A DNA stretch of 64,000 nt from Minisyncoccia bacterium (GTDB taxonomy: Bacteria; Patescibacteriota; Minisyncoccia; UBA6257; 2-01-FULL-56-20). This document shows positions 58,949 to 61,936 of the stretch, piece after piece. The DNA lies in the NCBI GenBank assembly GCA_049997875.1, contig JBEKRC010000005.1, positions 1,679 to 65,678 of the forward strand, given 5' to 3'. A program made the position numbers and the translations under genes. Below the pieces are notes generated by a model. That model did no database searches. It saw only the letters and a list, made by a program, of their open reading frames with translations, and had not been told where the DNA came from. Position 1 is the first letter of the stretch; the number at the start of each line of letters is the position of its first letter.

Positions 58949-61936
58949 ATGCCTGCATATGACCATAATGAGGTTGAGGCGAAGTGGCAGAAGAAATGGC
59001 GTGAAGAGGGAATTTACGAACCAGATTTAGACAGGGCGAAAAAACCGTTCTACAACTTGATGATGTTCCCGTACCCCTCGGCGGAGGGGTTGCACGTGGG
59101 GAACATGTACGCGTTCACGGGTGCGGACATCTACGGGCGGATGAAGCGCATGCAGGGCAACGACGTGTTTGAGCCGATCGGCCTGGACGGCTTCGGCATC
59201 CACTCGGAAAATTATGCGTTGAAGATCGGCGCGCATCCGATGGACCGGGCAAAGGTTTCGGAGGAGCGTTTTTACAAGCAGCTCGCCGCCATCGGCAACG
59301 GGTTCGCGTGGAACGAGCGATTGGAGACCTATGACCCCGAATACTACCGCTGGACGCAGTGGATTTTCGTCCAAATGTGGAAACACGGCCTTGCGTACCG
59401 AAAGAAACAGTCAGTCAATTGGTGTCCGAAAGATCAAACCGTGCTTGCTGATGAGCAAGTGGTCGCGGGCGCGTGCGAGCGTTGCGGGACGCAGGTTATT
59501 CAAAAGGACCTTGAGCAGTGGTTTTTCAAAATTACCGAGTATGCCGACCATCTGCTCAAGAATCTGGAAACGTTGGATTGGTCGGAAAAGGTGAAGATCG
59601 CGCAGAAGAATTGGATTGGAAAATCGGAGGGGGCACTCCTCAAATTCCCGATTTCTCATGAAAGAATTTCTAATGACAAGTTGTCCATCGAGGTGTTTAC
59701 AACGCGGCCGGATACGCTCTTCGGCGCGACCTACATGGTGCTCGCGCCCGAGCATCCGCTTGTGAAAGAACTCGAACCGCGCATTACAAATTTCACGGAA
59801 GTAAAAAAGTATCAAAAAAGCGCGAAGGATAAAACCGACGCCGAGCGCATCGCGGAAGGAAAGGAGAAAACTGGCGTTGAGTTGAAAGGCATCAAGGCCA
59901 TCAATCCTGCCACTAAAGAAGAAATACCGATTTGGGTCGCCGATTACGTTTTGGCGAGCTACGGCACCGGCGCCATCATGGCCGTCCCGGCGCACGACGA
60001 GCGCGACTTTGAGTTCGCAAAGAAATTCAAGCTGCCCATGAGGGAGGTGGTGGCGCAGGAAACCGGAGTTGCGCATCCCGGCGAAGAGCGCCGCGACGGC
60101 GGATGCGGCGTGATATTTGATCCGGAAGCCCAGCGCTATGCAGTCGCGCTTCATACCGACGATATTGTGCGCCTGTTTGCCGGAGGCGTGGAGGACGGCG
60201 AGGATCAGGAACAAGGCGTGCTCCGCGAGATCACGGAAGAAAGCGGTCTCTATGATTTCGGCCACACAGAAAAGGTGAAAACATGTTCCGCGCATTATTA
60301 CAACCGAAGAAAGAAAATATACCGGTCGGCGCTCGCGAGCTGCTTCCTTGTGGTGCTCAAAAGCAGGAAAGAGAAAGAAAGAAAATTGGAACCGCACGAG
60401 GCAAACCTGCGTCTCGCGTGGATGACGCCGAAGGAGATCATTGGGAATTGGGAGGCGCAGAACAAGGATGGGGGATTGAGCCATTGGCTTATCTTCCTGC
60501 GAGAGGCCGTTGCGCGGGCGATTGAACTTGGTCACGACACGACGAACGATCGCGGTCAGTTCCTCTCGTCAGCATACAGCGGCGAAGGGATTTTGATTGA
60601 TTCGGCTAGGTTCAGCGGCACGGACTCCGAGAAGGCGAAATGGGAAATCACGAAATTCGTGGGCGGCGAGCGGGTGACAAAGTTCCGATTACGCGACTGG
60701 CTCATCTCGCGCCAGCGCTATTGGGGGCCGCCGATCCCGATGGTGCACTGCGAAGTGTGCGCGCGTGCGAAAAAAGGCGAGCATGCGGATATGCCCGGCT
60801 GGTATGCCGTGCCGGAGGAAGAATTGCCTGTGAAACTTCCCTATGTGAAAGATTTCCGCCCAACGGGGACCGGCGTTTCGCCTCTCGCCGCGGTAAAGGA
60901 ATTTTATGAAACCAAGTGTCCGGCGTGCGGCGGCACGGCACGTCGGGAGACGGATGTCTCGGATACATTTCTGGATTCGGCGTGGTACTATCTCCGCTAT
61001 CTTGATCCGCAGAATACAAAAGGGGCGTTCAATCACAAACGATTGGAGAAATGGTTGCCCGTAGAAAAAGAAACTACCACGCGGCTCTACACGGGCGGCG
61101 CGGAGCACTCGGTCCTTCACTTGCTCTATGTCCGGTTCGTGGCAATGGCGCTCTCGGAATGGGGATTCGTCGTCTCGCCGGAACCGTTCAAAAAATTCCG
61201 CGCGCACGGGTTGCTCATTAAAGAAGGCGCCAAAATGTCCAAATCCAAGGGCAACGTCATCAATCCTGACGAATATATCCAGAAGTTCGGCGCGGACACG
61301 CTACGGATGTATCTCATGTTCCTTGCGCCGTTTGAGGACGGCGGCGATTTCCGGGACCAGGCGATCCCCGGCATCCTCCGCTTTTTGGAACGCGTTTGGA
61401 AACTGGGCGAGGTGGTCTCCTCCGGGAAACGGACAGAAGGCATCCCCGCGAACGCAAAAAGAAAAGGAAGCAGGGCGGTCGCCATTGCAGTGAAAAAAGT
61501 GTCCGAGGACATTGAGCGGCTGCACTATAATACCGCCGTGAGCGCGCTCATGGTGTGCCTGCGCGCGCTTGAGGAGGAACGCGAGGAGGGACGTGTCGCC
61601 CGCGGGGATTTCGCAACATTCCTGAAACTGATCGCGCCGTTCGCGCCGTACATCACGGAGGAACTTTGGCGCAGCGCCTTCGGCGAGGTTGCCTCAATCC
61701 ATCGCGCCGCATGGCCCACATACGATCCGGCGCTCATTGCCGAGGAAACGATCACGCTCGTGATCCAAGTGAACGGCAAGGTGCGCGACGTGATTGCGAC
61801 GGACGCGTCCCTCACCGAGGCAGTCGCGAAGGAACTCGCGCTCCGGAGCAAAAAGGTGCAAAATGTTCTGGGGGGCCGGACGCCCGCAAAGGTCATCTAT
61901 GTAGATAAAAAACTGGTGAATATCGTACTTCCATAA
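58949..61936 (+). CDS. leuS: leucyl-tRNA synthetase carrying an internal Nudix-hydrolase-like insertion
   Basis: HIGH-region [16 protein letters not shown]. CP1 [20 protein letters not shown]...[24 protein letters not shown]. The roughly 160-aa insertion at nt 60055-60560 contains a perfect Nudix box [23 protein letters not shown]. Confidence 0.9.
   Translation: [995 protein letters not shown]

What the first reader, a model, noticed from the sequence alone, without database searches (positions are those of the whole stretch)
60055..60560. Nudix-hydrolase-like domain inserted inside leucyl-tRNA synthetase
Between the conserved LeuRS segment [22 protein letters not shown] and the conserved [20 protein letters not shown] segment, the protein carries about 160 extra residues. 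In E. coli LeuRS these two segments are only about 60 residues apart.
The insertion contains a textbook Nudix box, [23 protein letters not shown]. This is an exact match to Gx5Ex7REUxEExGU. It is preceded by a beta-strand-rich segment, [26 protein letters not shown], as in bona fide Nudix folds.
I am not aware of a described LeuRS with an in-frame Nudix module. It could hydrolyse Ap4A or other dinucleoside polyphosphates, or misactivated adenylates made by the synthetase. Alternatively it could act as a regulatory domain.
The reading frame is continuous, so this is not a separate gene.
Basis: partly seen in the sequence, partly recalled or inferred. Interest (0 to 1): 0.72.

Follow-up and report, generated by a model that had tools for sequence, protein, structure and literature searches.

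The report
Nudix enzyme cassette inside leucyl-tRNA synthetase
The leucyl-tRNA synthetase of a small-genome Patescibacteria bacterium carries a complete, apparently active Nudix hydrolase inside a loop of its proofreading domain, while close relatives carry a different enzyme or nothing at that spot; I found no published description of this, and its purpose is unknown.

Summary

The insert is a whole captured gene. It is 46-56% identical, end to end, to free-standing ~170-aa Nudix proteins of Paceibacterota.

It is not unique. At least 76 protein clusters (50% identity) are LeuRS with a Nudix-like box at this site. A second, unrelated Nudix family, a nucleotidyltransferase and an unknown domain use the same loop. 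A serine hydrolase and an ASCH domain use two other sites.

Two syntenic genomes (88-90% nucleotide identity) differ only here. One has the other Nudix family. The other has a 41-residue loop plus a serine hydrolase elsewhere. The segment therefore behaves as an exchangeable cassette.

Catalytic residues are conserved in 94-100% of 17 fused copies, so I infer an active pyrophosphohydrolase tethered to a working LeuRS. The substrate is unknown. I found no published description.

The parts
58949..61936 (+). leuS: one continuous ORF of 995 aa, a bacterial-type leucyl-tRNA synthetase
   Evidence: ORF list. TIGR00396 scores 881.5 bits against a cutoff of 548.4. Pfam finds tRNA-synt_1, tRNA-synt_1_2 and Anticodon_1.
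59093..59104 (+). HIGH signature in the variant form HVGN (residues 49-52)
   Evidence: Read from the sequence. The variant is shared by a clade of 14 LeuRS, including L002 and L007.
59606..60049 (+). N-terminal part of the CP1 editing domain (residues 220-367). It includes the T-rich motif TTRPDT (59699-59716) and the editing-site motif AVPAHDERD (59981-60007).
   Evidence: PF13603 profile positions 1-146 match residues 220-374, E 5e-61. Motif positions.
60050..60619 (+). Variable cassette (residues 368-557). This is the only part of leuS with no DNA homology to the syntenic relatives L002 and L007.
   Evidence: blastn shows 87-90% identity on both sides and none inside. Sliding-window protein identity falls from 90-100% to 10-26% for L002, while L007 has almost nothing to align there.
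60059..60571 (+). Nudix hydrolase domain (residues 371-541), equivalent to a whole free-standing ~170-aa Paceibacterota Nudix protein
60182..60250 (+). Nudix box [23 protein letters not shown] (residues 412-434)
   Evidence: Exact match to GX5EX7REUXEEXGU, the only one in the window, with 0 in 200 shuffles. G412, E418, R426, E427, E430, E431 and G433 are kept in 94-100% of 17 fused homologues.
60293..60304 (+). Family motif H-[YF]-x-N (HYYN, residues 449-452), 15-18 residues after the Nudix box, in the specificity-loop ('X-loop') position
   Evidence: Column counts: H 85/86, Y 71 plus F 15 of 86, N 77/86. The X-loop concept is from PMC5389931.
60620..60703 (+). C-terminal part of the CP1 editing domain, which resumes after the cassette and runs to RLRDW
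   Evidence: PF13603 profile positions 147-183 match after the insert (protein 2). DNA homology to L002 and L007 resumes here.
61232..61246 (+). KMSKS catalytic loop (residues 762-766)
   Evidence: Read from the sequence.

Best explanation
SHOWN.
- The gene encodes a full-length bacterial-type LeuRS.
- A surface loop of its CP1 editing domain carries a complete Nudix domain. The loop corresponds to residues 365-372 of Thermus thermophilus LeuRS and lies between PF13603 profile positions 146 and 147.
- The domain derives from a family of free-standing ~170-aa Nudix proteins of Paceibacterota, so a whole gene was captured in frame.
- It models as an autonomous Nudix fold.
- It keeps the full catalytic box and the family-specific residues.
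- It is one of several alternative cassettes found in LeuRS of Patescibacteria and of a few MAGs labelled Bacilli or Clostridia. At this loop: at least three Nudix lineages, an ANT(2'')-like nucleotidyltransferase and an unknown domain. At two other sites: a PF06821 serine hydrolase and an ASCH domain.
- Three syntenic genomes with 90-100% identical LeuRS backbones carry three different states at this loop.

INFERRED.
- The differences between the three genomes arose by replacement of an internal leuS segment, through recombination between leuS alleles. They did not arise by fresh insertion of a free gene, because the replaced tract extends about 16 residues into CP1 sequence.
- LeuRS still aminoacylates and edits, because the KMSKS loop, the T-rich motif and the catalytic Asp motif are intact.
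- The Nudix module is an active Mg2+-dependent pyrophosphohydrolase. It is co-expressed with and physically tethered to LeuRS and acts on a nucleotide-type NDP-X substrate, that is, a house-cleaning activity riding on an essential gene.
- The most specific candidate substrate is dinucleoside polyphosphates such as Ap4A, a known side product of aminoacyl-tRNA synthetases. I put that at roughly 0.25. ADP-ribose or FAD-type substrates are about as likely.
For: Identity and fold.

Origin from free-standing genes: searches show full-length 46-56% identity. The N terminus of the free proteins aligns with the left junction and their C terminus with the right junction.

Real and recurrent architecture:
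- The same type-A insert at the same junctions occurs in L001, L003, L004, L006 and L021 and in P0070, P0071, P0073, P0079, P0097 and P0189-P0193.
- 76 of 138 representatives (50% identity clusters) are LeuRS with a Nudix-like box between the CP1 anchors.
- About 35 of 80 metagenome loci span at least 192 aa between the anchors.

Independent captures: type A and type B are only 10-26% identical to each other. Each has its own free-standing relatives.

Other cassettes.

Cassette replacement: synteny at 88-90% nucleotide identity with a hole at 60050-60620. Protein identity is 90-100% in the flanks but 53-60% for residues 541-570. Insert types are scattered across the LeuRS backbone tree.

Likely activity: the Nudix box and H449, R459, E481, H483, E484, W491 and H512 are kept in 94-100% of 17 fused copies.

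Joint model of CP1 plus insert: pLDDT 91.0, pTM 0.88.

House-cleaning context of free-standing copies: neighbours include NDK plus a second MutT-like Nudix, an HD_3 nucleotidase, HIT and IMPDH.
Against: - No enzymatic activity or substrate has been measured.
- No characterised Nudix subfamily is close. PDB sequence matches cover only the box (E 0.05), NCBIfam equivalogs score far below their cutoffs, and structural neighbours are 12-22% identical with mixed functions.
- The gene neighbourhood of free-standing copies is not conserved.
- The N-terminal family motif (F372, R382, D383) is relaxed in fused copies, so specificity may have shifted.
- Some type-B inserts have degenerate boxes, with E to Q and R to A. 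Catalysis is therefore not always retained at this site.
- The same two enzyme families (Nudix, PF06821) were fused to LeuRS repeatedly, which hints at a functional link that a pure 'passenger' model does not explain.
- No independent assembly of this exact allele was found; the best match is 65% identical.
- The HIGH motif is HVGN rather than HxGH.
Confidence: 0.7

Rival explanations
1. The Nudix module is functionally coupled to the CP1 domain's grip on the tRNA 3' CCA end. It would repair or inspect damaged or toxin-modified tRNA ends, for example by removing a pyrophosphate or a nucleotide-linked adduct. The other cassettes (serine hydrolase, nucleotidyltransferase, ASCH) would be alternative tRNA-end repair or anti-toxin modules.
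For: - All cassettes sit in the domain that binds the tRNA acceptor end.
- The same enzyme families were fused repeatedly and independently: three Nudix lineages, and PF06821 at two sites.
- Turnover among co-occurring close relatives is fast, as at conflict loci.
- The joint model is confident (pTM 0.88), which suggests fixed packing rather than a floppy tether.
- The L027 nucleotidyltransferase shows weak similarity to AbiEii-type nucleotidyltransferases (E 0.002).
Against: - Unrelated domains of 116-200 aa are tolerated at the same loops. That points to permissive, outward-facing sites rather than to placement next to the active site.
- There is no meaningful PADLOC defence match and no relatives in viral contigs.
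- Free-standing homologues have no tRNA-related conserved partner.
- Nudix chemistry would leave a 3'-phosphate and would not restore a 3'-OH (established knowledge).
Confidence: 0.1
2. The insert is a tolerated passenger. A small gene recombined into a permissive loop of an essential, highly expressed gene. It contributes nothing specific and is neutral, structural, or on its way to decay.
For: - Many unrelated domains occupy the same loops.
- Close relatives manage without an insert at this site (L007).
- Some type-B boxes are degenerate.
- Distribution on the LeuRS tree is patchy.
Against: - Catalytic and family-specific residues are kept in 94-100% of 17 fused type-A copies that are only 40-65% identical to one another. 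That indicates long-term purifying selection on catalysis.
- No stops or frameshifts occur in the window's copy.
- Composition is close to the host gene: GC 0.561 against 0.556, with GC3 somewhat lower at 0.64 against 0.70.
Confidence: 0.12
3. Artefact: an assembly chimera joined a free-standing Nudix gene into leuS.
For: No independent contig with this exact allele was found. Reads are not available to me.
Against: - Both junctions are in frame, at exactly the positions seen in at least 15 other fused type-A sequences from unrelated assemblies.
- The fused type-A domains mostly form their own branch, apart from the main free-standing clade.
- GC matches the host gene.
- The flanking CP1 sequence next to the insert co-varies with it.
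Confidence: 0.01
4. The insert is an intein-like or otherwise self-removing element, so the mature LeuRS lacks it.
For: It lies in a conserved essential gene, as inteins typically do.
Against: - No Hint or intein Pfam domain is found.
- The whole insert is accounted for by the Nudix fold.
- The junction residues (VVA|QETG and LSS|AYSG) lack the Cys/Ser at the N-terminal junction and the His-Asn followed by Cys/Ser/Thr at the C-terminal junction (sequence).
Confidence: 0.01

Closest known systems
Free-standing ~170-aa NUDIX hydrolases of Candidatus Paceibacterota (e.g. P0003, P0007, P0038, P0063, named 'NUDIX hydrolase' by NCBI)
   Same: They are 46-56% identical over their whole length. They share the Nudix box, the N-terminal E-x-G-x2-R-x2-E-x2-RDGGC motif, and the H-[YF]-x-N, E-x-HE and DHW motifs.
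   Different: They are separate genes in variable neighbourhoods, not next to leuS. In fused copies the N-terminal motif is relaxed: F372 becomes T, and R382 and D383 are kept in only 53%. None has been characterised.
Canonical bacterial LeuRS (T. thermophilus 1H3N/2BYT; E. coli 4AQ7/4ARC)
   Same: Same domain order, CP1 editing motifs (TTRPDT, GTG...PAHDxRD) and KMSKS. CP1 region E-values are 7.5e-65 and 1.5e-44.
   Different: Those enzymes have a loop of about 8 residues where the window has about 190 (T. thermophilus residues 365-372). The window has HVGN instead of HMGH.
Aminoacyl-tRNA synthetases with accessory enzyme domains, e.g. NCBIfam NF040702 'isoleucine--tRNA ligase, N-acetyltransferase domain-containing', and the appended domains of eukaryotic synthetases (the latter from my own knowledge)
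   Same: An essential synthetase carries an extra, unrelated catalytic or binding module. NF040702 appears in the list.
   Different: Here the module is inserted inside the editing domain rather than appended at a terminus. It is a Nudix hydrolase, and it differs between near-identical backbones.
Structural neighbours: E. faecalis MutT/Nudix protein 2AZW and T. thermophilus Ndx2 2YVM
   Different: Only 16-17% identical. The function of 2AZW is unknown. No subfamily assignment follows from these matches.

Membership tests
Nudix hydrolase superfamily (Pfam PF00293) | Nudix box GX5EX7REUXEEXGU | tested here: met
   Exact match at residues 412-434 (60182..60250). It is the only match in six frames, with 0 in 200 shuffles.
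Nudix hydrolase superfamily (Pfam PF00293) | Profile score at or above the Pfam gathering cutoff | tested here: met
   32.3 bits on the whole protein and 34.8 bits on the insert alone, against a cutoff of 21.1.
Nudix hydrolase superfamily (Pfam PF00293) | Nudix alpha/beta/alpha sandwich fold | tested here: met
Nudix hydrolase superfamily (Pfam PF00293) | Mg2+-dependent hydrolysis of a nucleoside diphosphate linked to X | not testable with these tools
   Inferred only, from conservation of the catalytic Glu and Arg residues in 94-100% of fused copies.
Bacterial-type leucyl-tRNA synthetase (TIGR00396 leuS_bact) | Equivalog HMM score at or above the curated cutoff | tested here: met
   881.5 bits against a cutoff of 548.4.
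Bacterial-type leucyl-tRNA synthetase (TIGR00396 leuS_bact) | Class I signature motifs HIGH and KMSKS | tested here: inconclusive
   KMSKS is present at residue 762. HIGH appears as HVGN, with the last His replaced by Asn. This variant is shared by 14 related LeuRS.
Bacterial-type leucyl-tRNA synthetase (TIGR00396 leuS_bact) | CP1 editing domain with the T-rich motif and the conserved Asp motif | tested here: met
   PF13603 E 5e-61. TTRPDT is at residue 251 and AVPAHDERD at residue 345.
Asymmetric Ap4A/ApnA Nudix hydrolases | Tyrosine in the specificity loop about 16-18 residues downstream of the Nudix box | tested here: inconclusive
   Y450 is 16 residues after the box and is Y or F in 86/86 family members. 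The marker is described in PMC5389931. It correlates with ApnA activity but does not define it.
Asymmetric Ap4A/ApnA Nudix hydrolases | Specific sequence or structural closeness to characterised Ap4A hydrolases | tested here: not met
Named Nudix equivalogs (NudC, RppH, MutT, ADP-ribose diphosphatase; NCBIfam) | Score at or above the curated equivalog cutoff | tested here: not met
   The best is NF001299 (NudC) at 20.3 bits against a cutoff of 158. All others are also far below their cutoffs.
Inteins | Hint domain and splice-junction residues (Cys/Ser at the N terminus; His-Asn followed by Cys/Ser/Thr at the C terminus) | tested here: not met
   No Hint or intein Pfam hit. The junctions read VVA|QETG and LSS|AYSG.

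The most novel reading that the evidence does not exclude
Two or three loops of the LeuRS editing domain in Patescibacteria form a hypervariable 'cassette locus'. Co-existing close relatives swap whole accessory enzymes there (Nudix, serine hydrolase, nucleotidyltransferase, ASCH). The driver would be conflict: detoxifying synthetase-directed antibiotics, or repairing toxin-modified tRNA 3' ends, with the CCA-binding CP1 domain acting as the delivery platform. This would be a new kind of modular, fast-evolving protective function built into an essential translation enzyme.
Probability: 0.15. Interest if true: 0.85.

Novelty: new variant of a known kind. Interest (0 to 1): 0.63.

Why it matters
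Aminoacyl-tRNA synthetases are among the most conserved proteins, and bacterial ones are regarded as architecturally stable. Here an essential synthetase hosts whole enzymes inside its proofreading domain. The captures were repeated and independent, and the content differs between genomes that are about 90% identical.

If the modules are active, as conservation suggests, small-genome symbionts attach metabolic or protective enzymes to LeuRS. That raises two testable questions:
- Does the Nudix activity deal with a synthetase by-product such as Ap4A, or with the tRNA end?
- Why is this loop exchanged so quickly?

There are also practical consequences. Automatic annotation labels these proteins simply as leucine--tRNA ligase or 'class I tRNA ligase family protein, partial'. 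Their unusual length could also mislead gene callers.

Tried and rejected
- Chance motif: rejected.
- Assembly chimera: rejected on indirect grounds. The same junctions occur in many independent assemblies. Reads were not available.
- Intein or self-splicing element: rejected (junction residues).
- Conserved gene neighbourhood of free-standing homologues as a clue to function: none found in six look-ups.
- Anti-phage defence link: the only PADLOC hits were weak, generic ones to a Nudix candidate model. PHROGs gave only generic Nudix families.
- Phage origin: no relatives in IMG/VR viral contigs.
- A donor or an independent copy of this exact allele: not found. The best matches were 65% (genome set) and 52% (metagenome set).
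- Direct repeats or target-site duplication at the junctions: none seen.
- Literature: seven searches linking LeuRS or aminoacyl-tRNA synthetases with Nudix, Candidate Phyla Radiation/Patescibacteria or inserted domains found no description. Two candidate papers were read and are irrelevant. The library lacks most subscription journals, so this is not proof of novelty.
- The afdb50 fold library was unavailable.
- Model coordinates are not exposed, so the orientation of the Nudix site relative to the editing pocket could not be measured.
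Full report
1. WHAT IS IN THE SEQUENCE

Window 58949..61936 (+) is a single ORF of 995 codons with no internal stop. It scores 881.5 bits against the bacterial LeuRS equivalog TIGR00396, whose cutoff is 548.4.

Pfam places the LeuRS editing (CP1) domain PF13603 at residues 220-374, matching profile positions 1-146. 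The remaining profile positions 147-183 match only after residue ~534. Between them, PF00293 NUDIX matches residues 409-511 at 32.3 bits, or 34.8 bits for the insert alone, against a cutoff of 21.1.

The Nudix box [23 protein letters not shown] (60182..60250) is an exact GX5EX7REUXEEXGU match. It is the only one in all six frames of the window, and none occurred in 200 shuffles.

The distance from AVPAHDERD to the end of [11 protein letters not shown] is 246 aa here and 78-115 aa in insert-free LeuRS. Aligned to solved structures, the extra residues replace a loop of about 8 residues, 365-372 in T. thermophilus LeuRS.

The one correction is that the host is the CP1 editing domain, not the leucine-specific domain.

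2. IT IS A REAL NUDIX FOLD

An AlphaFold2 model of residues 368-560, built with a 77-sequence alignment, has mean pLDDT 91.3 and pTM 0.86. Its strand, helix and strand order is that of a Nudix domain.

A model of the whole CP1 region with the insert (residues 215-600) has pLDDT 91.0 and pTM 0.88. Both domains are therefore predicted to fold, and the joint arrangement is modelled with confidence. Coordinates are not exposed, so I could not measure where the Nudix active site points.

3. WHERE IT CAME FROM

A search with the insert returned 67 free-standing proteins of 123-184 aa, plus a 306-aa fusion. Where a source names the organism (most hits carry none), it is a Paceibacterota, Nomurabacteria or unclassified MAG. 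All carry PF00293 and are 45-56% identical to the insert.

Their N termini (M..[16 protein letters not shown]..) align with the left junction ([20 protein letters not shown]..). Their C termini (..AIELGYDTT..) align with the right junction. A whole gene, not a fragment, is embedded in the loop.

The family has its own conserved residues beyond the Nudix box: the N-terminal ERRDGGC motif, H449-[YF]-x-N452, R459, E481-x-H483-E484, W491 and H512-W513.

No characterised Nudix subfamily is close:
- PDB sequence matches cover little more than the box (E 0.05).
- NCBIfam equivalogs score at most 20 bits against cutoffs of 80-260.

4. IT IS WIDESPREAD, SO IT IS NOT A CHIMERA

The same 'type-A' Nudix at the same junctions occurs in these sequences:
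- LeuRS genes of L001, L003, L004, L006 and L021.
- Database proteins P0070, P0071, P0073, P0079, P0097 and P0189-P0193.

In a search of 1.84 billion representatives, 76 of the 138 newly retrieved top hits are LeuRS, or LeuRS fragments, with a Nudix-like box between the CP1 anchors. In 65 of them the box is strict. About 35 of 80 metagenome loci span at least 192 aa between the anchors.

I did not find an independent contig with this exact allele. The best matches were 65% and 52% identical. A chimera would nevertheless have had to join a free gene in frame, at both ends, at exactly the site used elsewhere, which is not credible.

The insert is also not an intein. There is no Hint domain, and the junction residues are wrong for splicing.

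5. THE LOOP IS A HOT SPOT WITH ALTERNATIVE CASSETTES

About 20 other LeuRS genes carry a different Nudix ('type B') at the same site. It has its own free-standing ~160-aa relatives at 41-47% identity and is only 10-26% identical to type A. The genes come mostly from Patescibacteria, and also from MAGs titled Bacilli, Bacillales and Clostridia.

Other occupants of the same loop:
- L054: a third Nudix type.
- L027: a PF10706 ANT(2'')-like nucleotidyltransferase.
- L061: an unassigned 116-aa segment.

Two further sites also take inserts:
- A site at the start of CP1, before VFTTRPDT. It carries a PF06821 serine hydrolase in L007 and in L006, L025, L029 and L030 (by homology to the L007 insert), an ASCH domain in P0124, and Nudix plus serine hydrolase in P0154.
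- A site after residue ~608. It carries PF06821 in L021 and L028.

On a crude LeuRS backbone tree these states are scattered, even between nearest neighbours.

6. RAPID EXCHANGE

Loci L007 (OY970382) and L002 (OY970175) are complete ~0.89-Mb chromosomes from one sample. They are syntenic with window 52298-63938 at 88-90% nucleotide identity. Their LeuRS backbones are 90-100% identical to the window's over most 30-residue windows.

Homology disappears only at 60050-60620. At this position:
- The window has type A.
- L002 has type B.
- L007 has a 41-residue loop, plus PF06821 at the other CP1 site.

The divergent tract includes about 16 residues of CP1 sequence after the Nudix domain; identity over residues 541-570 is 53-60%. 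I take this as replacement of an internal leuS segment by recombination with another leuS allele, not as a new insertion of a free gene.

Three further observations fit this reading:
- Fused type-A domains mostly cluster together, apart from the main free-standing clade, which suggests one or a few old captures that then spread.
- The insert's GC is close to that of the rest of the gene: 0.561 against 0.556, with GC3 0.64 against 0.70.
- No direct repeats flank the insert.

7. HOW IT PROBABLY WORKS

Shown:
- The Nudix box residues G412, E418, R426, E427, E430, E431 and G433 are kept in 94-100% of 17 fused copies. So are the family-specific H449, R459, E481, H483, E484, W491 and H512. These copies are only 40-65% identical overall.
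- The LeuRS motifs for editing ([15 protein letters not shown]) and catalysis (KMSKS) are intact.

Inferred:
- The protein is a working LeuRS carrying an active pyrophosphohydrolase.
- Unrelated domains fit the same loops, so I think the position reflects structural tolerance rather than placement next to the active site. On this view the Nudix module acts on a soluble NDP-X substrate.

Leads on the substrate are weak:
- A Tyr/Phe occupies the specificity loop, which correlates with ApnA hydrolases (PMC5389931).
- Free-standing copies lie near nucleotide house-cleaning genes: NDK plus a second MutT-like Nudix, an HD_3 nucleotidase, HIT and IMPDH.
- One lineage fuses type A to a PNPOx-like domain, and another has a PNPOx gene nearby.
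- Ndx2 is the second-best structural neighbour.

Ap4A is a known synthetase side product (established knowledge), which makes it the most attractive candidate. I give it about 0.25. Misactivated aminoacyl-adenylates are unlikely substrates, because they contain no pyrophosphate bond.

8. RIVAL EXPLANATIONS

- A tRNA-end repair or anti-toxin role would explain three things: why all the cassettes sit in the CCA-binding domain, why the same families were fused repeatedly, and why turnover is fast. I found no defence or phage link, and I cannot check the geometry.
- A neutral passenger is contradicted by the conservation of catalytic residues. It remains possible for some type-B copies whose boxes are degenerate.
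- Artefact and intein explanations are rejected, as set out above.

9. NOVELTY

Seven full-text searches found no description of a LeuRS-Nudix architecture or of domain cassettes in CP1. The two most promising papers are unrelated.

The proteins are already in public databases under generic names such as 'leucine--tRNA ligase' or 'class I tRNA ligase family protein, partial'. The sequences are therefore known, but the arrangement appears not to have been described.

I class this as a new variant of a known kind: synthetases with accessory domains, and Nudix fusions. The unexpected feature is rapid cassette exchange inside an essential gene.

Noticed in passing
window 58082-58973 (ORF 58174..58908, +): An ECF-type sigma-70 factor gene (Sigma70_r2, r4_2 and ECF domains) lies directly upstream of leuS. 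It is absent from both syntenic relatives, L002 and L007, where the intergenic gap is only about 200-250 nt. It is a second indel between these genomes, next to the cassette-bearing gene.
   Followed up: partly
window 59093-59104; also L002, L003, L007, L023, L024, L026, L033 and others: The class I HIGH signature reads HVGN, with the last His replaced by Asn, in a clade of 14 LeuRS. Related variants HIGG, HVGG, HIGS and HAGN also occur. Most other loci have HVGH or HMGH.
   Followed up: partly
L007:6718-7251; also L006, L025, L029, L030 (site 1); L021:7801-8391 and L028:7408-8010 (site 3): A PF06821 'Ser_hydrolase' (alpha/beta hydrolase) domain is inserted in LeuRS at two different positions in different lineages, sometimes together with a Nudix insert. 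The same enzyme family was therefore fused repeatedly.
   Followed up: partly
L027:1692-2171; L061:7105-7452; L054:2058-2465; P0124 residues 277-377; P0154: Other cassettes occur in the LeuRS CP1 domain: an ANT(2'')-like nucleotidyltransferase (PF10706, with weak similarity to AbiEii), an unassigned 116-aa segment, a third Nudix type, an ASCH domain, and a tandem Nudix plus serine hydrolase.
   Followed up: partly
L008, L015, L032 (type-B inserts; sequences): Some type-B Nudix inserts have a degenerate box. The first Glu becomes Gln and the Arg of 'RE' becomes Ala or Ser, apparently together. L015 also loses one Glu of the EE pair. Catalysis may be weakened or lost in those lineages.
   Followed up: no
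L082 (JBBCGK010000001.1, around 830886-843410): The free-standing type-A Nudix gene lies in a cluster of small single-domain enzymes: ASCH, GNAT, HIT, NYN and an alpha/beta hydrolase. Two of these families, ASCH and alpha/beta hydrolase, also occur as LeuRS inserts elsewhere.
   Followed up: no
P0036 (306 aa); L092/L093: In one lineage a PNPOx-like domain is fused to the N terminus of a type-A Nudix (the Pfam score is below the cutoff). In another genome a PNPOx_N gene lies two genes from the free-standing Nudix. This is a possible lead to a flavin or pyridoxal nucleotide substrate.
   Followed up: partly
L001 (ENA contig_68712), 337-2727: The leuS gene with the type-A insert is broken across three reading frames. 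This is either long-read sequencing error or a pseudogene.
   Followed up: no
L052 (1360 aa), L020 (1204 aa), L036 (1160 aa), L059: Several Patescibacteria LeuRS are much longer still and have further unexamined insertions. The 131-aa segment L052:7954-8346 has no Pfam assignment. L059 has an extra upstream region resembling the LeuRS N-terminal part.
   Followed up: no
output: All 120 listed hits of the CP1-region search are at most 674 aa, and many are named 'partial', even on long contigs. Either these long genes are often fragmented by gene callers, or this is a property of the search index.
   Followed up: no
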